Position numbers and translations under genes: made by a program. A stretch of DNA of 64,000 nt from IMG/VR virus record IMGVR_UViG_3300031539_000004, positions 64,696 through 128,695 of that record, one strand, 5' to 3'. Position 1 is the stretch's first letter. Each line of letters starts with the position of its first letter. This DNA comes from a virus. Under the pieces are notes generated by a model. The model did not search any database and was not told the origin of the DNA. It worked only from the letters and a program-made list of their open reading frames with translations. Below, piece by piece: positions 1 to 54,377 of the stretch.

Positions 1-83
1 ACTTGAACCCGGCACGGGGGACGACCACCCCGACGACCAGGGTTTCGCGAGTCGCGGCACGCGAAACTGTACGCTCGGGTTCC

Positions 84-1406
84 ATGACCGACACGACCGT
101 CCCCGCCGACCTCCTCGAGCAGGAGTACGCGACCGTCCCCGTCGACTCGCTCGACCCGCACCCCGACAACCCGAGGCGAGGCGATGTCGACGCGATCGCA
201 GCGTCGATCGACGCCAACGGGTTCTTCGGAGCGGTCCTCGCCCAACGCGCCACAGCGGATCACGGCCCACGGATCCTCGCCGGCGAACACCGGTGGCTCG
301 CCGCGCAACGCCACGGCCACCTCGAGATCCCCGTCCTCTGGATCACCTGCGACGACGACCGGGCACGCCGCATCCTGCTGGTAGACAACCGCGCCGACGA
401 CCTCGCCACCTACGACGACCGGTACCTCGCCGACCTCCTCGGCGAAATCAAAACCAGCGAAGCCGGCCTCACCGGCACCGGGTTCGACGGCACCGACCTC
501 CGAGAACTCCTCGACCGGCTCGACCCCCAAGACCAAACCCTCGACCCGCCCGACGACGACGACCCGCTCACCAACATCGACCCCGACGCCGAACCCGTCG
601 CCAAGGTAGGCGACCTCTGGCAGATCGGCCCCCACCGGCTACTCGTCGGCGACTGCTACGACCCCGCCAACCTCGACCGCCTCCTCGACAACACCGAACA
701 CGGCACCGTCGACGCCGTCGTCACCGACCCCCCCTACGCCATCTACGGCTCAAGCACCGGCATCTCGAGCGACGTAGCCGACGACAAAATGGTTCGCCCG
801 TTCTTCGAACAACTCGGCCGCCTCATCCGCGCCCGCCTCAAGCCATTCGGCCACGCCTACGTCTTCTGCGACTGGCGCTCATGGGCAACCGTCTGGCACG
901 GAATGAAAACCGCACGCCTCGCCCCCAAGAACTGCATCGTGTGGGACAAAGGCCGCTTCGGCCTCGGCGGCATGTACGCCAACACCCACGAATTCGTCGG
1001 CTTCTTCGCCAACCTCCCCAACCAACGCACCATGACCTCCAGCGACCAGCGAGGCCAACGCGCCGTCAACAGCGAACCCAACATCTTCCACACCAACCGC
1101 CCCACCGGAGACGACCGCCAACACAACGCAGCCAAACCCCTCGACCTCCTCCAATGGCTCATCGTCAACAGCACCGACGAAGGCGAAACCATCCTCGACC
1201 CCTTCACCGGCAGCGGCTCCGTCATCATCGCCGCCCACCACACAGGCCGCATCGCCTACGCCACCGAACTCGAACCCCGCTTCGCCGACATCACCATCCG
1301 AAGGGCAGAACACCTCACCGGCCACACAGCCACCGTCACCCACGCCCCCGAGACAGACGACCCGACCACCAACGACACGACCAGCGACGACCACGACCAG
1401 CCATGA
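84..1406 (+). CDS. ParB/Srx-like domain fused to N6/N4 DNA methyltransferase
   Basis: N-term LDPHPDNPRRGD...LAGEHRW; C-term VVTDPPY, AKPLDLLQWLI, ILDPFTGSGS, ATELEPRF; start moved to ATG 84. Confidence 0.9.
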   Translation: MTDTTVPADLLEQEYATVPVDSLDPHPDNPRRGDVDAIAASIDANGFFGAVLAQRATADHGPRILAGEHRWLAAQRHGHLEIPVLWITCDDDRARRILLVDNRADDLATYDDRYLADLLGEIKTSEAGLTGTGFDGTDLRELLDRLDPQDQTLDPPDDDDPLTNIDPDAEPVAKVGDLWQIGPHRLLVGDCYDPANLDRLLDNTEHGTVDAVVTDPPYAIYGSSTGISSDVADDKMVRPFFEQLGRLIRARLKPFGHAYVFCDWRSWATVWHGMKTARLAPKNCIVWDKGRFGLGGMYANTHEFVGFFANLPNQRTMTSSDQRGQRAVNSEPNIFHTNRPTGDDRQHNAAKPLDLLQWLIVNSTDEGETILDPFTGSGSVIIAAHHTGRIAYATELEPRFADITIRRAEHLTGHTATVTHAPETDDPTTNDTTSDDHDQP

Positions 1407-1969
1407 CCACACCCAAACCCCAAGCCCCACACGACCCCAAAACCCAACGCGCCCAAAACACCGATGGAGGAACGGATTCGGTGATCGAAAGTTCGTCTCG
1501 TGATGGTGGGAGGCCTGCGAAGTGGGCGGATCCTCGGGTGCGGGAGGCGTTGGTGGATGGGGTGAGGATGGGCGCTCCGGTGAAGTATGCGTGTCGGGCG
1601 GCGGGGATTGATGAGGGGACGTTTTATCGGTGGCGGCGGCAGTCGGCTGAGCCGGAGGCCCCGGAGGAGTTGCGGGCGTTGTTTGAGGAGTTGGAGGGGG
1701 CTCATGCTCGGGCGGTGTTGCGGAACGTCGGGTTGATTCAGGCGGCGGCGCAGGAGTCGAAGCATTGGAAGGCGGCGGCGTGGTGGTTGGAGCGGATGCA
1801 TCCGGAGGATTTCGCTCGGCAGGATCCGGGGCAGCTTGGGCAGGGGGGGACGCAGGTGGTGATCGCTTCGGAGGATGACATCAGGCGGTTGCAGGCGACG
1901 TTGGAGCGGCGTGCTGAGGCGTCGGGGGAGTTGGCGGTGGTGGACGCCGAGGTGGTGGGCGATGAGTGA
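1403..1969 (+). CDS. terS: Terminase small subunit (putative)
   Basis: HTH-like ACRAAGIDEGTFYRW and KAAAWWLER; overlaps upstream stop and terL start. Confidence 0.7.
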   Translation: MTTPKPQAPHDPKTQRAQNTDGGTDSVIESSSRDGGRPAKWADPRVREALVDGVRMGAPVKYACRAAGIDEGTFYRWRRQSAEPEAPEELRALFEELEGAHARAVLRNVGLIQAAAQESKHWKAAAWWLERMHPEDFARQDPGQLGQGGTQVVIASEDDIRRLQATLERRAEASGELAVVDAEVVGDE

Positions 1970-3590
1970 CCAGCCGGCGTTGATCCCTAGCGGTCTCCTC
2001 GAGCTGATGACCGATGAGGAGCGGGCGCTCTACTCGCAGTACCTCGACTATCAGGTGGTGCAGGAGGCGACCGATCCGTTGCCGTGGTTGGACGCGTTGT
2101 TCCCGTCGTATGTGCCGTTCGATTTCGCTGAGCATCACAAGGTGTTCTGGTCGTGGTTGTGGGAGATCGAGCGGCAGGAGAAGCCGGATCCGTTTGTGGC
2201 GATCTGGCCGCGTGGTGGAGCGAAGTCGACGGCGGCTGAGCTCGGGATCGTCGCGCTGGCGGCTCGGGGCCGGCGGAAGTACGGGCTCTACATCTGCGAG
2301 ACGCAGGACCAGGCGGATGACCATGTGGGGAACGTGGCGTCGCTGCTCGAGACGGACGCGATCTCGGCGGCGTACCCCGAGCTCGGGGAGCGGATGCTCG
2401 GCAAGTTCGGGCATGCGAAGGGCTGGAAGGTGAACCGGTTGCGGACGGCGTCGGGGTTCACGCTCGACGCGATCGGTCTCGACAAGGCGGCCCGGGGGAT
2501 CAAGCTCGATGAGCAGCGGCCTGACTTCATCGTGCTCGATGACATCGATGGGGAGACCGACTCGGGGCACACGACGGAGAAGAAGAAGACGATCATCACC
2601 CGGAAGCTGTTGCCGGCGGGGTCGCATGATTGCGCGGTGCTGGCGATCCAGAACAAGGTGTCGGACGAGTCGATCTTCGCTCAGCTCGCTGATGGGCGCG
2701 CCGACTTCCTGACCTCGCGGATCTTGTCGGGGCCGATCCCGGCGATCGAGGGTCTCGAGTATGAGCAGCAGCCGACCGAGGACGGGCGGCGGCGGTGGGT
2801 CATCACCGGGGGGACGGCGTCGTGGGAGGGCCAGTCGGTCGAGATCTGCGAGTCGCAGATGAACGACTGGGGGTTGTCGGCGTTTCTGTCGGAGGCGCAG
2901 CACGACACCGAGCCGCCAGGCGGCGGGATGTTCGACCATCTGGATTGGCCGGCGATCCGGGTGACGGAGGCTGAGCTGCCCGAGTTCCGGCGGGTGGTCT
3001 GTTGGGTCGACCCGGCGGTCACGTCGACCGACAACAGCGACTGCCAGGCGATCATCGTGGACGGTCTCGGCGTCGATGGGAAGATCTACCGGCTGTGGGC
3101 GTGGGAGGGCCGGACCACTCCGCTCGACACGTTGCAGCGCGCGATCCGGGCGGCGGTGCGGCTCGGGTCGGAGAAGGTTGGCGTGGAGACCGACCAGGGC
3201 GGCGACACTTGGGAGTCGGTGTACCGGGAGGCGTTGCGGTCGTTGCTCGAGGACGAGAACGCCCCGCTCGAGCTCGGCGACGAGCAGGTGATTCCCCGGT
3301 TCGATCAGGCGAAGGCCGGGCAGATGCAGGCGTCGAAGACCGCTCGGGCGGCCCGGATGCTGGTCGACTACGAGACCGACGTGTTCCGCCACCTCGAGGG
3401 CGTCCATCGGGTGATCGAGCGGTCGTTGTCGCGGTTCCCGAAGACGAAGCCGTTCGACCTCACCGACGCGTGTTTCTGGTCATGGGACGATCTGGATCCG
3501 AAGCCGAGGCGGATGCGGCGTCGTGCTCGGGCGAAGTCGGCGGCGCGCCGGTCGCTTGGCGATGTGTCGCCGGCGTTGCTCGGCGGGTGA
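1962..3590 (+). CDS. terL: Terminase large subunit
   Basis: Walker A-like WPRGGAKST, Walker B RPDFIVLDD, nuclease VCWVDPA...D and DLTDA. Confidence 0.92.
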   Translation: MSDQPALIPSGLLELMTDEERALYSQYLDYQVVQEATDPLPWLDALFPSYVPFDFAEHHKVFWSWLWEIERQEKPDPFVAIWPRGGAKSTAAELGIVALAARGRRKYGLYICETQDQADDHVGNVASLLETDAISAAYPELGERMLGKFGHAKGWKVNRLRTASGFTLDAIGLDKAARGIKLDEQRPDFIVLDDIDGETDSGHTTEKKKTIITRKLLPAGSHDCAVLAIQNKVSDESIFAQLADGRADFLTSRILSGPIPAIEGLEYEQQPTEDGRRRWVITGGTASWEGQSVEICESQMNDWGLSAFLSEAQHDTEPPGGGMFDHLDWPAIRVTEAELPEFRRVVCWVDPAVTSTDNSDCQAIIVDGLGVDGKIYRLWAWEGRTTPLDTLQRAIRAAVRLGSEKVGVETDQGGDTWESVYREALRSLLEDENAPLELGDEQVIPRFDQAKAGQMQASKTARAARMLVDYETDVFRHLEGVHRVIERSLSRFPKTKPFDLTDACFWSWDDLDPKPRRMRRRARAKSAARRSLGDVSPALLGG

Positions 3591-3593
3591 CGT

Positions 3594-3779
3594 TCAGCCG
3601 CGGCGGATCTGGCGGCGGGCCTTGCGGGCGAGGCGGCGGCCTCGGCGGGTCTTGGGGGTGGGGGTGGCGACGGCGAGGGCGTAGCCGATGGCCGCGCCTT
3701 TGGCGTTGAGGTTCGGGATGCGTCCGGCGGCGGTCCACCTCGGGAGGCTCGGGGCTGCGATTGCGGTGCTCCACTTCAT
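3594..3779 (-). CDS. Small basic hypothetical protein, leaderless
   Basis: -10-like TACAGT 7 nt before ATG, overlapping palindrome 3789-3807. Confidence 0.55.
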   Translation of the reverse strand: MKWSTAIAAPSLPRWTAAGRIPNLNAKGAAIGYALAVATPTPKTRRGRRLARKARRQIRRG

Positions 3780-3788
3780 GTCCCGAAC

Positions 3789-3807
3789 TGTAGCATAGAA
3801 GGCTACG
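3789..3807. promoter_or_regulatory. YGTAG-N9-CTACR palindrome (overlaps -10)
   Basis: tgtag catagaagg ctacg. Confidence 0.8.
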
Positions 3808-3809
3808 GC

Positions 3810-6800
3810 GATGTGTCGGGTTTCGGGGTGGTGGCCCGGCTGGTGGCTCGGCGGCGTCGGGCGAGCTCGAGGCGGTCGGGAGGTTCCCGTCAGGTTCGTT
3901 GAGGTTCCGTCAGGTTCTCGGGAGGTTCGTCAGGTGCTCGAGCTCGGCCGGCTGGCGGCAACCGCGGGGCGTGACGGCTCGGGCGGCTCGGCGACGGACT
4001 GCTAGCCGGGATCGCAGCAGTTTCGCAGCAGATCGCAGCAGTTCCGGTGCGCCGGCAGCAGTTCTGCTGCGTTTGCTGCCCGGCCGGTGCGTGACCGGAC
4101 CGCTCTGAGCGGTTGCCGGCCAGGGCGGCGAGCTTCGCCGAGGTGGTCTCGTGATGGTCTCCGGGGGTTCGTCGGGGGTTCGTCGCCGAGCTCGGGGATA
4201 ACGGGGGCATAACGGGGGATGATCGAGTGATGCGCCTGGCGTCCGCTGGTCGCCCCGGGGCCGGTTGGGCGGTGATCGGGCGGGAGGCGGCCCTCGAGGG
4301 CGTAGACGGGCGCTGAGGGGCCGATCGTCGGCTCCTGGCGGCGGCCAGCGGCGAGCATCGTGCCAAGCATCGTCGGCATCGTCCGAGCATCGTCCGAGCA
4401 TCGTCGGGGATTCTGAGCGATCTGGCCTGGCCGGCGCGCCTCCTGGCGACTCCCTGGCGACTCTCGGGGGGTCGGGACGGGCCGAGGAGCGTGGAACGAC
4501 CCGACATCAGTCTCGGGAGCCCTGGCGACCAGGGCGAAACGGGCGGGTCTGCGGCGGCCTCGAGCCTCCTGGCCGGCTGTCCTGGCATGCTCTCGTATGC
4601 GCTGGTCACGGTCCGTTTCTGAGCTCGGGAGTCCTGGGATACTGCGGGCTCCCTGGCGACTCCTGGCGCGACTCCCTGGCGGGAGCACGGGATGATGTGG
4701 GGAGCGGCGAGATCATCGGGGGCCTTGGCGTGGGCCTCGGGTGAAGGCGGGGTCCTGGCCGGCCGGCGCTCGAGCTCGAGCCGGCAGCCAGGGGGGAGTA
4801 CAGAGAGCCCTTACAGGCCCGTGACCTGCGGACATGCCGGCACTGAAGATTGTCCGAAGTCGGGCAGTCGGACCTCGGTGGCGGCGAGCTCGCGGTCGTC
4901 GGGCGAGCAGCGTGGAAGGCAGTGGAACGCAGCACGACGCAGTAGAACGCAGTGGAACGCAGTGGAACGCAGCGAAGTTGGTGCCCTGGCAGCGGTTCTG
5001 CTGTCGAGCAGGCGGCCTGGCGGCCACGATCGCCGCCATGAGCGGGGCGGGGGCCTCGGGCGTGATCGGGCGGCGGCCCGCCTCGAGGGGCACACGGCGG
5101 CGTTGTGCGTCGGATCCGGGCCGATCCGTGGCGGCCTGGCGGCGTGGAGCGCGCCCGGTCGCCTGGCGGGGAGTGGTTCTTCTGGTTCCCGGGGCGAGGA
5201 ACGTGACGAACCCGACGAACCCGGCGGGGCGTGGGCGTGAGCTGGTGGGCCTCGGGGCGAGCTCGGGCGGCCGTCGTGTTCCTCGTGTTCCTGGCCGGCG
5301 AACACTCAACGACACAACGCCGTGACCAGCGCATATGCCGGCCTGGCGGTGGCGATATGCCGGCCCTGGCGGCCGGGAGTGTTCCCGGGAGTTCGTCGGG
5401 TTCTTGGGAGAAGGACCCGAGGATCGTGACGGCTGGCGCTCGGTGAGGTGGGCCGCCTGGCGGATCCGGGTTTGCCCTGGCCGGCTACTCGAGCCGATTC
5501 TGTCCGGCCTGGTGTCCTCGCGTAACCGCTGGTCAGGGGACAGAAATGGGACTCCTTGGCCGGCGTGTTGTCCGCAGTGGTGGTTGCCGGCAGGTGGCCT
5601 GGCTGGCGTCGATCGAAGGAGCTGGCCTGGCTGGCGGCGTGAGGTGGCCGAGGGCGTCGGGGCGGCGCTCGGGCGTGATGACGCTCGGGGTGGCGCACGG
5701 CGGCACACGGGCCGTGATCCGGGGGCCGTGGCGTGAGCTGGCCGGGCTCGGATCTGCGCTTGAGCCGGCCAGGGCGGCCAGGCAGAACGGGATGACGTGA
5801 GGTACCTGCGGCCAGGTCTCGAGCCAGGAGGCGCGCCAGGCAGTCGCGCCGAGCTCGGCCGGCCAGGGCGTAACCGCTGGTCAGCGTCCGTTTCCGACAG
5901 GGAGAATCGGGAGGCTCGCGCCAGGTCGTTTCCCAGGGGGCCGGCCAGGGCGAGGAGCGTGGGATGGAGTGGAACGCAGTGGGGAGCAGCGTGGCGGCAG
6001 TTGCGGGCGGGCTCGGCCGACTGTCGGCGCGACTGCCTGGTCAGGGTGCATAACCGCTGGTCACGGTGCAGAAACGAGGGTGTCGGCGACTGCGGTTTCG
6101 AGAGGCTGAAACGGCAGTCGCCAGGAGGGCGCGCTCGGCGTCGATCGTGGGGCCTGGCGGCTGGGTTCCCGGCTACCAGCTCGAGGGGGCGGCGGCGGGC
6201 CGTGCCAGCTCGGGGCGGGTGATCGGGCGTGGCGTGGCGCTCGGGCGCGTACGGGGGCCGTGAGGGGCTGATCCGTGGCGATCGTGGGCGCGGGTGGCGG
6301 CCTCGGGGGTGGTCGTCGCCGATCCGGGGGTGTTCTCCGGGTGTTCTCCCGGGTGTTCTCCCTGGTCGGGCGAGCTCGGAGCCATCGCCGAGCCGCCACT
6401 GAGCCAGCCACTGAGCCAGCCGCTGACCTGCGGTTATGCGTTTGCCTGGCCGGCGACCTGGCCGGCGATGGTCGTCAGATGGTTCGTTGATGGTTCCGTC
6501 GGGGGTTCGTTGCGGACGCTGGGGGCCGTTTCGGCCAGCGTCGGCCAGCGTCGGCTCGAGCTCGGCGCGACTGTCGAACCCTGTGCATAAGGGCTGGTCA
6601 CGGTGCGTTTCTGGCCGGCTGGTCGGGGGTGTCGCGACTGCCGCGACTGTCGGGGTGCCAGCACCCTCCGGAATTGATGGTCGGGGAATTGATGGATGCT
6701 CGAGGATCCATCGATTCCGCCCTGGTGAGCCGTCACGGTCAGCGGTTGCTGGGGGCTGCTGGCCGGCGGAACTGCAACGGACAGCGGTTGCGGCTGACAG

Positions 6801-7350
6801 GGCGAGCTCGGCCGCGTTGCTAGCGTGCTATCAATTCCCGGCCTGGTCGGCGGCCAGCAGGTTCCGGGGCGGCACCACTCATCGACGGTCCTGCGCTCGG
6901 GCGTGGTGGGCGTACAAGCGTACCGGTCGCCATTCGGGGCTGGTCGGGCGTGGCGTGGGCCTCGAGGGCGTCAGCGGCGATCTCGGGCCGCCTGGCGGGG
7001 CGTTGAGTGGCGGGTCGAGGCGGCGTTGAGTGACTGAGCGGCCTGAACGGCGGTGCGGGCGTTGAGGTCGTTGAGTGACTGAACGGGCCTCGTGCTCGGG
7101 CGTGAGGCGGGCGGGGGCGGCTTGCGAGGTCTTGAGCCGGCGCTCGTCCCGCTCACCGGGGCAGGGTTTCCCTCGGTCGGCCGCCGCCGCCCGAGGTGAA
7201 GCTACCCGACGGGGCGAGCTTGGGCGATCGGGTTGCCGGGGAAGGGTGCCGGGGTGTGACAGGCTGACAGGCTGCCTGTCCATAACCGCTGGTCACGGGC
7301 TTGCGGTGGGGGTGCTCGAGGGTGTCGCGACTGTCGGATCTGACAGGCTG
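3810..7350. repeat. Non-coding block of many different short tandem arrays (~10-11 bp period) with GCTGGTCA and CTCGAG motifs
   Basis: AGGTTC x5 (3881-3928), GCATCGT x5 (4355-4404), GCAG(tggaac) x6 at exact 10-bp period (4919-4972), GGGTGTTCTCC x3 (6328-6361); no credible ORF. Confidence 0.85.
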
Positions 7351-7357
7351 CGGGGGG

Positions 7358-7624
7358 TCATTCGGCCTGGTCGTCGGGGTCGCCAGGGCAGTCGGCCAGG
7401 CATTCGTCTTCGGGGCCGACGTGGCAGTGGGGGCAGGTGGCGTCGAGCCAGCCGGCGATCTCGATGGCGGCGAGGTCGCCGAGCGCTTTGGAGGCGGTGT
7501 CGCCGAGGTTGATCTGGATCGGCGCGTCGGGGGGGAGGCCGTTGACCTTGCGGTAGTGGGCGGCCATTGCCTCGAGGTCGGCTACGGCGTCGGGGGGTTG
7601 CGAGGGGTGGCGGGGGTCAGCCAT
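7358..7624 (-). CDS. Hypothetical protein with CxxC
   Basis: Last gene of coupled leftward run; CPHC motif. Confidence 0.65.
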   Translation of the reverse strand: MADPRHPSQPPDAVADLEAMAAHYRKVNGLPPDAPIQINLGDTASKALGDLAAIEIAGWLDATCPHCHVGPEDECLADCPGDPDDQAE

Positions 7625-20355: not shown

Positions 20356-20389
20356 AGTATGGTCCCTCGGTGTAGCCGAAGCAACTACA
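20356..20389 (-). promoter_or_regulatory. Leaderless promoter with palindrome over -35
   Basis: TTGCTT-N17-CATACT; palindrome 20371-20389. Confidence 0.85.
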
Positions 20390-23011: not shown

Positions 23012-23045
23012 ACCCTACCTCCGATGTGTAGCCGAAGCAACTACA
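23012..23045 (-). promoter_or_regulatory. Leaderless promoter with palindrome over -35
   Basis: TTGCTT-N17-TAGGGT; palindrome 23027-23045. Confidence 0.82.
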
Positions 23046-28517: not shown

Positions 28518-28611
28518 AACGTAACTTCCCCGCTGTAGCCGAGTCAACTACAAAGAGGGGTTCCGAGGGAACAACGCCCTGACCAGCATCTATGTAGCCG
28601 AAGAAGCTACA
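28518..28611 (-). promoter_or_regulatory. Promoter of long RNA 1 with two palindromes
   Basis: TTGACT-N18-TACGTT; palindromes 28534-28552 and 28593-28611. Confidence 0.82.
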
Positions 28612-33849: not shown

Positions 33850-33918
33850 GCTGGTCAGCGAGTTGTTCCCCGAGAACCCCCGTTTGTAGTTGATTCGGCT
33901 ACAGCGGTATGCCATGCT
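33850..33918 (+). promoter_or_regulatory. Promoter of long RNA 2 with palindrome over -35
   Basis: TTGATT-N17-CATGCT; palindrome 33885-33903. Confidence 0.82.
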
Positions 33919-42553: not shown

Positions 42554-42618
42554 CCAGCGGTTATGCGAGGCCCTTTCCGCCCGCTGTAGTCGCTTCGGCT
42601 ACACGGGCATGGTACGTT
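42533..42618 (+). promoter_or_regulatory. Leaderless promoter with palindrome over -35 and upstream element
   Basis: TCGCTT-N17-TACGTT; palindrome 42585-42603. Confidence 0.82.
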
Positions 42619-54342: not shown

Positions 54343-54377
54343 TGTAGTTGCTTCGGCTACAGCGGGTGTGCCATGCT
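54343..54377 (+). promoter_or_regulatory. Leaderless promoter with palindrome over -35
   Basis: TTGCTT-N18-CATGCT; palindrome 54343-54361. Confidence 0.82.

What the first reader, a model, noticed from the sequence alone, without database searches (positions are those of the whole stretch)
3810..7350. 3.5-kb non-coding mosaic of different helically phased tandem arrays next to terL
Seen: at least a dozen unrelated short arrays with ~10-11-bp period. Examples are AGGTTC (3881, 3892, 3902, 3912, 3923), TCGCAGCAG (4012, 4023, 4033), GGGG(C)ATAACG (~4194-4222), GCATCGT (4355-4398), CCTGGCGACT (4442, 4453), GCAG(TGGAAC) x6 at exactly 10 bp (4919-4969), GGGTGTTCTCC (6328, 6339, 6351), GAGCC (6379-6413), GGTTC (6481, 6492, 6504) and TCGGCCAGCG (6531, 6541). 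There is no CRISPR repeat-spacer structure and no credible ORF. Known: one-turn direct repeats are typical of iterons and winged-helix/response-regulator sites. Inference: a replication or packaging hub, or a DNA sponge displaying sites for many different DNA-binding proteins on one face of the helix. A block of this size and diversity is unusual.
Basis: partly seen in the sequence, partly recalled or inferred. Interest (0 to 1): 0.78.

Follow-up and report, generated by a model that had tools for sequence, protein, structure and literature searches.

The report
Gene-free phage block of phased repeats
A 3.56-kb gene-free stretch of a roughly 130-kb phage genome is built from about twenty short repeat arrays spaced one DNA turn apart, plus nine promoter-less copies of a motif that elsewhere sits upstream of the phage's own promoters; it is most likely a docking platform for DNA-binding proteins, unusual in size but not proven new in kind.

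Summary
Window 3800-7357 shows no codon periodicity, no Pfam domain in any ORF, no Rfam match, no sigma-70-type promoter and no terminator. Repeats at lags of 9-12 bp stand out strongly (z 9-16), and this is the only such non-coding block in the 3.87-Mb MAG. The same spacing between the flanking genes recurs in separate assemblies, so it is not an artefact.

The arrays are not all unrelated:
- 7 of 19 share a GTTC core.
- The block falls into about six degenerate modules.
- It carries about 35 strand-biased CCTGGC(C)GG motifs.
- It holds nine copies of a GCTGGTCA-centred 17-mer.

That 17-mer lies about 34 bp upstream of 11 of the phage's roughly 21 conserved leaderless promoters. Inside the block it has no promoter beside it.

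A replication origin is unlikely. A lambda-type iteron set lies inside an O-like initiator gene 30 kb away, and the block has no AT-rich element or DnaA boxes. A sponge for host factors gets no support, because no array unit occurs in tandem in the host contigs.

Best reading (confidence about 0.35): a DNA-level binding platform or sink for the phage's own regulators. The main rival is a packaging or genome-end repeat region like those of T5 and T7. No relative carries the block. This scan had flagged the same stretch twice before; no look-alike on other DNA was found.

The parts
1430..1969 (+). terS-like gene with an N-terminal HTH; left flank
   Evidence: PF01527 HTH_Tnp_1, E 2.6e-7. GC3 frame supports coding.
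1875..3590 (+). Large terminase (terL), the last gene of the roughly 98-kb plus-strand block
   Evidence: phrog_38, E 6e-51. GC3 0.89.
3594..3779 (-). Possible 61-aa basic ORF between terL and the block
   Evidence: Weak GC3 signal in its frame. Translation. Called as a gene in other assemblies.
3789..3807 (.). Palindrome TGTAGCATAGAAGGCTACG, a variant of the phage's promoter palindrome, 9 nt upstream of the 61-aa ORF
3800..7357 (.). The non-coding block itself
   Evidence: No GC3 periodicity, no Pfam, no Rfam, no promoter or terminator (25, 71). Lag 9-12 autocorrelation z 9-16 (26).
3876..3940 (+). AGGTTC array, 5-6 units, period 10-11
   Evidence: TRF; sequence.
4012..4043 (+). TCGCAGCAG array x3, period 10-11, followed by an inverted partner at 4055-4071
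4162..4218 (+). Two adjacent arrays: GGGGTTCGTC x2 and GGGNATAACGG x2.5, both period 11
4352..4405 (+). GAGCATCGTC array x5, period 11
4442..4463 (+). CCTGGCGACTC x2. Related copies at 4652-4681.
4912..4972 (+). GTGGAACGCA array x6, period 10. A diverged copy lies at 5948-5990.
5172..5223 (.). GGTTC x2 facing GAACC x3: an inverted set of the GTTC-core units
   Evidence: Sequence; TRF 5205-5223.
5274..5292 (+). TCGTGTTCC x2. Three more GTTC-core units lie at 5376-5410.
6328..6366 (+). GGGTGTTCTCC x3, period 11-12
6390..6426 (+). GAGCCAGCCACT x3, period 12
6445..6555 (+). Three consecutive arrays: CCTGGCCGGCGA x2, GATGGTTCGTT x3, TCGGCCAGCG x2.5
6663..6718 (.). GGAATTGATGG x2 followed by a 17-nt-arm perfect-centre palindrome (6685-6718). 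A fourth, inverted copy lies at 6832-6842. This is the lowest-GC spot of the block (47.5%).
7000..7080 (+). GCGTTGAGTG, about 4 copies
4595..4611 (+). GCTGGTCA-centred 17-mer, copy 1
   Evidence: 11 matches in the window against 0.14 expected.
4819..4835 (-). 17-mer copy 2
5320..5336 (-). 17-mer copy 3
5522..5538 (+). 17-mer copy 4
5870..5886 (+). 17-mer copy 5
6050..6066 (+). 17-mer copy 6 (exact consensus), flanked by GCGACTG motifs and followed by a 15-nt-arm hairpin at 6085-6122
6421..6437 (-). 17-mer copy 7
6587..6603 (+). 17-mer copy 8, within the roughly 100-bp 'unit B' shared with 6024-6069 and 7275-7336
7282..7298 (+). 17-mer copy 9 (exact consensus)
4255..4350 (+). 'Unit A', a degenerate roughly 100-bp GC-rich module head. 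Other copies lie at 5040-5170, 5650-5750, 6195-6310, 6880-7000 and 7080-7160.
   Evidence: Alignment A1, 49% mean column identity; BLAST pairs.
7358..7624 (-). 88-aa gene, the last gene of the 24-kb minus-strand block; right flank
   Evidence: GC3 0.89. The exact protein is found on 8 contigs.

Best explanation
The block is a DNA-level binding platform for sequence-specific DNA-binding proteins, chiefly the phage's own. It acts as a reservoir or nucleation site, not as a gene, an RNA or the replication origin.

It lies where the roughly 98-kb rightward gene block (which ends in terS-terL) meets the 24-kb leftward block. It is built from about six diverged modules. Each module has a roughly 100-bp GC-rich head, several 2-6-copy direct-repeat arrays with one unit per helical turn, strand-polar CCTGGC(C)GG motifs, and copies of a GCTGGTCA-centred element.

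The same element sits about 34 bp upstream of 11 of the phage's roughly 21 conserved leaderless promoters. In the block it occurs nine times with no promoter beside it.

Proposed mechanism: proteins that recognise these units load side by side on one face of the helix and oligomerise cooperatively. The block then either sequesters factors that act at the promoters, with a titration effect that scales with genome copy number, or concentrates them into one large nucleoprotein complex.

Shown: non-coding status, phasing, the shared element, the absence of promoters, reproducibility across assemblies.
Inferred: that proteins bind, which proteins, and the regulatory consequence.
For: - Non-coding.
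- Phased arrays far above chance and unique in the MAG.
- The 17-mer occurs 9 times in 3.56 kb. All 13 hits on the phage contig C2 at up to 3 mismatches belong to the element, while the 12 hits in the host lack the conserved flanks.
- GCTGGTCA runs at 1.69 per kb in the block, 0.08 in the rest of the phage and 0.05 in the host.
- Eleven CTGGTCA/TGACCAG sites lie within 70 nt of the promoter palindrome. In eight of these the element starts 33-34 nt upstream, in either orientation.
- No promoter palindrome or -10 element lies inside the block itself; a variant palindrome sits at its left edge (3789-3807).
- The element does not fold into a conserved hairpin (z about 0, a different fold in each copy), so a DNA site is likelier than a terminator.
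- GTTC-core units in 7 of 19 arrays resemble the GTTGTTC..GAAC part of the promoter-upstream element.
- The same 3578-3579-bp spacing between the flanking genes appears in a JGI contig and two Logan run assemblies.
- Iteron arrays of a near-identical unit (GGGAACC x10, period 10-11) sit beside a winged-helix-like segment in a Rep-like ORF of another high-GC viral contig. This shows that such units occur in a likely protein-binding (origin-like) setting elsewhere.
Against: - No binding protein was identified. The phage has no expanded family of DNA-binding paralogues to match the many unit types.
- No relative carries the block, so conservation and covariation cannot be assessed.
- Twelve of 19 arrays have units seen nowhere else in the phage, so the link to promoters covers only part of the block.
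- The copies of the element in the block have diverged from the promoter-associated ones in their flanks (CGTTTCTG against GGTTGTTC).
- The strong strand polarity of several motifs (CCTGGCGG 10:0) is not required by a simple sink model.
Confidence: 0.35

Rival explanations
1. Genome-end or packaging-associated repeat region. On this reading the block flanks or contains the physical termini or terminal repeat. Its arrays would serve concatemer processing, terminase loading or control of DNA ejection, like the untranslated repeat regions of the T5 terminal repeat or the short-repeat arrays beside the T7 terminal repeat.
For: - The block lies directly downstream of terS-terL at the convergence of two transcription blocks.
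- T5, a siphovirus of similar size, has 0.63 + 0.19 + 1.2 kb of untranslated regions packed with direct repeats, inverted repeats and palindromes at the edge of its terminal repeat (bioRxiv 10.1101/866236).
- Several motifs are strongly strand-polar, as expected for a directional process.
Against: - Nothing shows termini here. Independent assemblies run straight through the block, and their breaks lie elsewhere: inside a structural ORF, and at window position about 10459, where a promoter palindrome lies (my arithmetic from the contig coordinates).
- The sharpest composition flip and two period-16 arrays lie upstream of terS at 1356-1460, a more usual place for a pac site.
- None of about 70 terL relatives (44-60% identity) has such a block after terL.
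Confidence: 0.2
2. Functionless, fast-evolving spacer. On this reading the block is a gene-free zone between convergent operons that grew by segmental duplication and slippage and is merely tolerated.
For: - Modules and arrays are degenerate (arrays 71-100% matched; unit A 49% column identity).
- No homologue exists anywhere, so no purifying selection can be shown.
Against: - Periods are confined to 8-13 bp, with almost no mono- to hexanucleotide slippage products.
- Motifs show strong strand polarity.
- The block shares a specific element with the promoter regions.
- The spacing between the flanking genes is identical in several assemblies.
- From general knowledge: capsid-limited phage genomes rarely keep 2.7% ballast.
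Confidence: 0.12
3. Replication-related locus: a second origin, or an iteron-based copy-control locus like P1 incA.
For: Direct repeats phased with the helix are the hallmark of iterons. A GGGAACC x10 array forms a likely origin inside a Rep-like ORF in another viral contig.
Against: - A lambda-type candidate origin exists inside the O-like initiator gene 30 kb away.
- Its iterons share no excess 8-10-mers with the block.
- The block has no AT-rich element and no DnaA-box cluster.
- Units are 8-13 bp rather than the usual 17-22 bp.
- No initiator gene lies next to the block.
Confidence: 0.08
4. Partition centromere cluster (like R1 parC, F sopC or TubR-tubC) for a plasmid-like prophage state.
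For: R1 parC consists of ten 11-bp repeats bound side by side by a ribbon-helix-helix protein (general knowledge), and the block has the same geometry. The phage contig carries no host genes, so a plasmid-like lifestyle is not excluded.
Against: - The family searches I ran (a subset of the phage proteins) found no ParA, ParM or TubZ-type motor and no adaptor gene.
- The three ParB-N domains found are fused to DNA methyltransferases.
- There are far more unit types than one centromere needs.
Confidence: 0.07
5. Decoy for host transcription factors such as OmpR/PhoB-type response regulators.
For: A one-turn direct-repeat geometry fits winged-helix regulators. The host is an actinobacterium of the order Acidimicrobiales. 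From memory, the stretch GTCAC-N6-GAAAC at 6060-6075 resembles the actinobacterial GlnR box.
Against: - None of 16 units occurs in tandem in 3.74 Mb of host contigs.
- The 17-mer has no genuine copies in the host.
- The GlnR-like spacing holds in only one or two copies.
Confidence: 0.05
6. One or more non-coding RNAs are transcribed from the block.
For: First-stage notes of this scan propose other large non-coding tracts with promoters in the same phage. Read-through from either flanking operon is possible.
Against: - No Rfam hit.
- No sigma-70-type promoter; only 2 and 5 TANNNT hexamers on the two strands.
- No terminator.
- Mean folding z of -0.6 and -0.3, similar to a coding control.
- Direct repeats do not pair with one another.
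Confidence: 0.05

Closest known systems
Untranslated repeat regions of the phage T5 left terminal repeat (candidate injection stop signal)
   Same: A large siphovirus genome with kilobase-scale gene-free DNA. That DNA is a dense mosaic of different direct repeats, inverted repeats and palindromes, with helical-turn spacing noted, and it is thought to bind protein.
   Different: T5's regions total about 2 kb, lie at a known terminal-repeat edge, contain host DnaA boxes and are conserved in 25 relatives. Here the block is 3.56 kb, the termini are unknown, there are no DnaA boxes and no relatives, and the repeats are mostly tandem 10-11-bp arrays.
Phage T7/T3 short-repeat arrays (SRL/SRR) beside the terminal repeat
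   Same: Short tandem units in non-coding DNA close to the terminase genes at the end of the late region (general knowledge).
   Different: T7 has two arrays of one unit type spanning about 100 bp each, next to a mapped end. Here there are 19 or more arrays of many unit types, and no end has been mapped.
Iteron arrays of phage and plasmid origins and copy-control loci (lambda ori, P1 oriR/incA, P4 ori/crr)
   Same: Direct repeats phased with the helix, bound cooperatively by a winged-helix protein. The incA and crr loci show that iteron clusters can act away from the origin.
   Different: No adjacent initiator gene, no AT-rich element and shorter units. The phage's own O-type iterons are elsewhere and unrelated.
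Plasmid R1 parC and related ribbon-helix-helix centromeres
   Same: Tandem 11-bp units, one per turn, built for side-by-side loading into a helical nucleoprotein filament.
   Different: No partition motor or adaptor gene was found, and there are many unrelated unit types.
Titration loci such as E. coli datA, and the dispersed repressor sites (stoperators) of cluster A mycobacteriophages
   Same: Binding sites for a regulator placed away from any regulated promoter (datA). A short asymmetric site repeated through a phage genome in intergenic gaps (stoperators).
   Different: Both bind one known protein through one motif. Here the binder is unknown, and the shared element is only one of many motif types in the block.

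Membership tests
Protein-coding gene or pseudogene | Codon-position GC bias in a 69% GC genome; detectable domain | tested here: not met
   The GC3 frame contrast vanishes across 3600-7350. No Pfam hit for the 10 longest ORFs.
CRISPR array | 24-48-bp repeats separated by unique spacers of similar length | tested here: not met
   TRF and the repeat finder show only head-to-tail 8-13-bp units.
Structured non-coding RNA | Rfam match, or own promoter and terminator plus a folding energy beyond shuffles | tested here: not met
   (mean z -0.6 and -0.3).
Iteron-type replication origin | Three or more helically phased direct repeats | tested here: met
   19 arrays, period 8-13. The units are shorter than classical 17-22-bp iterons.
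Iteron-type replication origin | Adjacent AT-rich unwinding element and/or DnaA boxes | tested here: not met
   Minimum 47.5% GC in any 40 bp. Only two isolated one-mismatch DnaA-box look-alikes.
Iteron-type replication origin | A cognate initiator gene next to or around the repeats, with matching iterons | tested here: not met
   The O-like initiator lies at C2:35915-36805 with its own internal iterons. They share no excess k-mers with the block.
Partition centromere (parC, sopC or tubC type) | Tandem binding units for a centromere-binding protein | tested here: inconclusive
   The geometry fits, but no binder is known.
Partition centromere (parC, sopC or tubC type) | Linked partition NTPase and adaptor genes | tested here: not met
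   None among the proteins scanned. The ParB-N domains found are fused to methyltransferases. Not every small ORF was scanned.
Terminus-associated repeat region (T5 LTR regions, T7 SRL/SRR) | Lies at or beside the physical DNA end or terminal repeat | not testable with these tools
   No reads are available. Assemblies run through the block.
Terminus-associated repeat region (T5 LTR regions, T7 SRL/SRR) | Gene-free mosaic of short repeats close to the packaging genes | tested here: met
pac or cos site | Located in or just upstream of terS, a few hundred bp long | tested here: not met
   The block starts 1.8 kb downstream of terS, beyond terL, and is 3.56 kb long. A better candidate region lies at 1356-1460.
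Regulator titration or binding-site reservoir locus | A cluster of the same site that is used at regulated promoters, without a promoter of its own | tested here: met
   The GCTGGTCA element occurs 9 times in the block and 11 times upstream of promoter palindromes. No palindrome or -10 lies inside the block.
Regulator titration or binding-site reservoir locus | Demonstrated binding by the regulator | not testable with these tools
   The binder is unknown.
Host transcription-factor decoy | Units match tandem sites in host regulatory DNA | tested here: not met
   No tandem pairs in host contigs for 15 of 16 units; one pair for AGGTTC against 1.3 expected by chance. The MAG is 91% complete.

The most novel reading that the evidence does not exclude
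A phage-borne 'array of arrays': a multi-specificity DNA reservoir. Cassettes of the form GGCGAGCTCG - variable one-turn repeat array - CCTGGC(C)GG each display a different binding specificity on one helical face. Together with orphan copies of the promoter-upstream element, they would sequester or concentrate several regulators at once and so couple gene expression to phage genome copy number. An alternative polar function would be to guide or arrest a DNA translocase or exonuclease. No such multi-array hub has been described for phages, as far as my searches show.
Probability: 0.2. Interest if true: 0.8.

Novelty: new variant of a known kind. Interest (0 to 1): 0.58.

Why it matters
Phage genomes are normally more than 90% coding, so a stable 3.56-kb gene-free block (about 2.7% of this genome) implies a function that works through DNA itself.

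If the block binds the same factors as the phage's roughly 21 near-identical promoters, it would be a natural example of regulation by binding-site titration in a virus. It would also give a first look at gene control in phages of Acidimicrobiia, a group that is almost unstudied.

If it instead marks the genome ends, it extends the T5/T7 type of terminal repeat architecture to actinobacterial phages. Either result can be tested with existing read sets and cell-free protein-DNA assays.

Tried and rejected
- **Homology searches for the block.** All came back empty or with noise only:
  - 50,697 phage records, blastn.
  - 40 related genomes.
  - The 17-mer in viral contigs gave 0 hits; in 185,579 genomes it gave 47 single hits, which I took for chance because none held more than one copy.
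  - This scan's own index.
- **Synteny through terL.** About 70 relatives at 44-60% identity were found in viral, genome and metagenome contigs. None has phased arrays, and most have a coding gene straight after terL. tblastx showed that only terS and terL are shared.
- **Other flanking or marker genes.**
  - The flanking endonuclease belongs to a widespread domain and was uninformative.
  - The major capsid protein has no close relative in IMG/VR.
- **Origin of replication.** Rejected as the primary reading. Cumulative GC skew shows no turning point at the block.
- **Intrinsic-terminator reading of the 17-mer.** Rejected: there is no conserved hairpin.
- **Host-motif decoy.** No tandem matches in the host.
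- **Restriction-site decoy.**
  - 6-bp palindromes are only mildly enriched overall (24 per kb, against 17 in the rest of the phage and 22 in the host).
  - CCWGG, however, runs at 12.9 per kb against 1.9 in the rest of the phage. I recorded this but cannot explain it.
- **Paralogous DNA-binding protein family matching the arrays.** None found.
- **Circular closure of the contig.** The ends do not overlap. Other assemblies extend both ends by about 2 kb into what may be one ORF with its middle missing.
- **AGGTTC-array pattern search in viral contigs.** It gave more than 118 hits of mixed nature. This was useful only for showing that GGTTCC iterons occur elsewhere.
- **Not done.** DNA curvature modelling, because I had no reliable parameter table.


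Full report
**Context**

The window is positions 62807-126390 of a 126-kb contig (C2) in a 3.87-Mb MAG with 68% GC.
- The MAG has 11 WhiB-like genes, and its rpoB is 86-87% identical to that of Acidimicrobiales MAGs. The host is therefore an actinobacterium of that order.
- All of C2 looks like phage. It encodes portal, major head protein, head-tail adaptor, a 2491-aa tape-measure-like protein, endolysin, Gam, SSB, an O-like initiator, a DnaB-like helicase, several DNA methyltransferases, terS and terL.
- Other assemblies of the same phage are 111-128.7 kb long. All break within about 2 kb of the same spot, in what may be one structural ORF with its middle missing. The genome is therefore roughly 130 kb (my estimate), and the plus-strand block very probably runs continuously from window 31444, through the contig join, to terL.
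- The finding lies where this block (which ends with the ParB-methyltransferase gene, terS and terL at 3590) meets a 24-kb minus-strand block that ends at 7358.

- 5-mer self-identity peaks at lags 9-12 (47, 64, 75 and 61 matches against about 9-10 in shuffles; z 9-16), with echoes at 20-23 and 30-32 and no 3-bp signal. Coding controls peak only at multiples of 3.
- Spectral power at 9.5-12 bp is 1.68x the median, against about 1.0 in controls.
- GC3 frame contrast, which is very strong in every flanking gene, disappears from about 3600 to 7350. The ten longest ORFs have no Pfam domain.
- A scan of the whole MAG finds no other non-coding block of this kind.
- The distance between the two flanking genes is 3578-3579 bp in a JGI contig (100% identical over 17.6 kb, though possibly the same data as the MAG) and in two separately assembled sequencing runs. 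An assembly artefact is therefore unlikely.

- TRF finds 19 arrays of period 8-13 covering 18% of the block. Several more two-copy sets are visible by eye.
- The arrays are not all unrelated. Seven share a GTTC/GAAC core, and [GT]GTTC[CT] occurs 16 times on the + strand and never on the other.
- A roughly 100-bp GC-rich unit recurs about six times at 550-780-bp intervals, which suggests old segmental duplication.
- CCTGGC(C)GG-type motifs occur about 35 times. CCTGGCGG is 10:0 by strand, and CCTGGCCGGC has 11 exact copies in the block against 2 in the other 60 kb of the window.
- In six or seven places, by eye, a GGCGAGC(TCG) motif is followed 34-101 bp later by a CCTGGC motif with an array in between. 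I did not test this pattern statistically.
- CCWGG is 6.7 times denser here than in the rest of the phage, which itself has about half the host's density.

**The key link**

A 17-mer, ATAACCGCTGGTCACGG, occurs nine times in the block (six on the + strand, three on the - strand), against 0.14 matches expected in the whole window. Its other real copies are all on the phage contig, in intergenic gaps.

Following those copies revealed a phage-wide promoter cassette of about 21 copies:
- a 19-bp palindrome, TGTAGTTGMYYCGRCTACA, that contains a -35-like TTGAYY;
- about 7 nt of spacer;
- a -10 such as TACGTT;
- about 6 nt of spacer and then the ATG, so the transcripts are leaderless.

Eleven CTGGTCA/TGACCAG sites lie within 70 nt of such a palindrome. 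In eight of them the element starts 33-34 nt upstream, in either orientation. There it is extended by a GGTTGTTC-N2-5-GAACC segment.

No promoter palindrome and no TANNNT-type promoter lie inside the block; a variant palindrome sits at its left edge, next to the 61-aa ORF. The element shows no conserved RNA hairpin, so it is not an intrinsic terminator. The block therefore concentrates orphan copies of an upstream promoter element, plus multimerised GTTC-type units that resemble that element's second half.

**What it is not**
- Not coding, not CRISPR and not a recognisable RNA.
- Probably not the origin. The O-like initiator gene contains five GGGGTGGACGCTCCGTC iterons in the lambda manner, right beside the helicase gene. 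These share no excess k-mers with the block. The block also has neither an AT-rich element nor DnaA boxes.
- Not a mirror of host regulatory sites. None of 16 units is tandem anywhere in the host contigs.

**Best explanation and rivals**

I commit, at about 0.35, to a DNA-level binding platform or sink for the phage's own DNA-binding proteins. Same-face cooperative loading on the one-turn arrays would build a large nucleoprotein complex, and the orphan promoter-upstream elements would compete with, or concentrate, the factor that acts at the promoters. This is the only reading with a direct sequence link.

The main rival (0.2) is a genome-end or packaging repeat region. It rests on position next to terS/terL and on analogy with the T5 untranslated repeat regions and the T7 short-repeat arrays. 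It cannot be tested without reads.

The other rivals are neutral spacer DNA (0.12), a replication-control locus (0.08), a centromere cluster (0.07), a host-factor decoy (0.05) and RNA (0.05).

**Novelty**

No homologue exists in any collection I searched, and none of about 70 phages related through terL has anything similar. Repeat-rich gene-free hubs are known in T5, and iteron clusters away from origins are known in P1 and P4. I therefore class this as a new variant of a known kind. It is notable for its size, for the number of different one-turn arrays, and for the tie to the promoter-upstream element. This scan had flagged the same stretch twice before.

Noticed in passing
About 21 sites on the phage contig, e.g. 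window 10454-10472, 15734-15752, 20371-20389, 23027-23045, 28534-28552, 33885-33903, 42585-42603, 54343-54361: A highly conserved promoter cassette. The palindrome TGTAGTTGMYYCGRCTACA holds a -35-like TTGAYY. About 7 nt further on comes a -10 such as TACGTT, and about 6 nt after that the ATG, so the mRNAs are leaderless. The first codons are also similar (ATGA-GAAC). The palindrome suggests a dimeric regulator that sits over the -35.
   Followed up: partly
L414:16243-16385 (= C2:36243-36385, outside the window): Five iterons, GGGGTGGACGCTCCGTC, inside the O-like replication initiator gene and next to a DnaB-like helicase gene: a lambda-style candidate origin.
   Followed up: partly
window 1356-1460: Two period-16 C/A-rich arrays sit at the junction of the ParB-methyltransferase gene and terS. 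This is exactly where GC skew flips from about -0.4 to +0.45, which makes it a candidate pac region.
   Followed up: partly
whole phage contig against host contigs: CCWGG runs at about 1.9 per kb in the phage outside the block, 3.4 per kb in the host and 12.9 per kb inside the block. CGAGCTCG is 2.5 times denser on the phage contig than in the genome as a whole.
   Followed up: partly
G000:C2 ends; L418:1-1989 and L419:7560-9313: At least five assemblies of this phage break within about 2 kb of the same place, in what may be one structural ORF whose middle is missing. This suggests a hypervariable or internally repetitive gene.
   Followed up: partly
G000:C20:1-1000: Host contig: 10-12-bp direct-repeat arrays (GTGACGACCA.., CAGCACGCC..) and inverted CACGTGTCAC motifs lie next to what looks like the 3' end of a tRNA gene. 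They look like binding sites of an integrative element.
   Followed up: no
L304:3218-3400 (IMGVR_UViG_3300027743_000016); mirrored in L336: Ten GGGAACC units at a 10-11-bp period, followed by AT-rich GTAC palindromes. They lie in frame within a 719-aa ORF just after a winged-helix-like segment: a likely origin embedded in a Rep gene.
   Followed up: partly
L300 and L332 (IMGVR_UViG_3300046170_000341, 549 kb, 39% GC): Two mirror-image multi-kb blocks made of different 10-11-bp arrays (up to 70 copies of an 11-mer, 17 of another, 7 of a 10-mer). This is a much larger 'array of arrays' in a giant viral contig.
   Followed up: no
G000:C98:12746-16168 and G000:C80:5-2041: Two rpoB loci in the MAG, one full-length and one at a contig start. 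The bin may mix two strains or carry contamination.
   Followed up: no
window 3-1406; C2:41852-43264 (minus strand); C2:52847-54469: Three related methyltransferase genes on one phage. The first two are full-length paralogues (37% identity), and the first carries a ParB N-terminal domain; the third shares only shorter segments.
   Followed up: no
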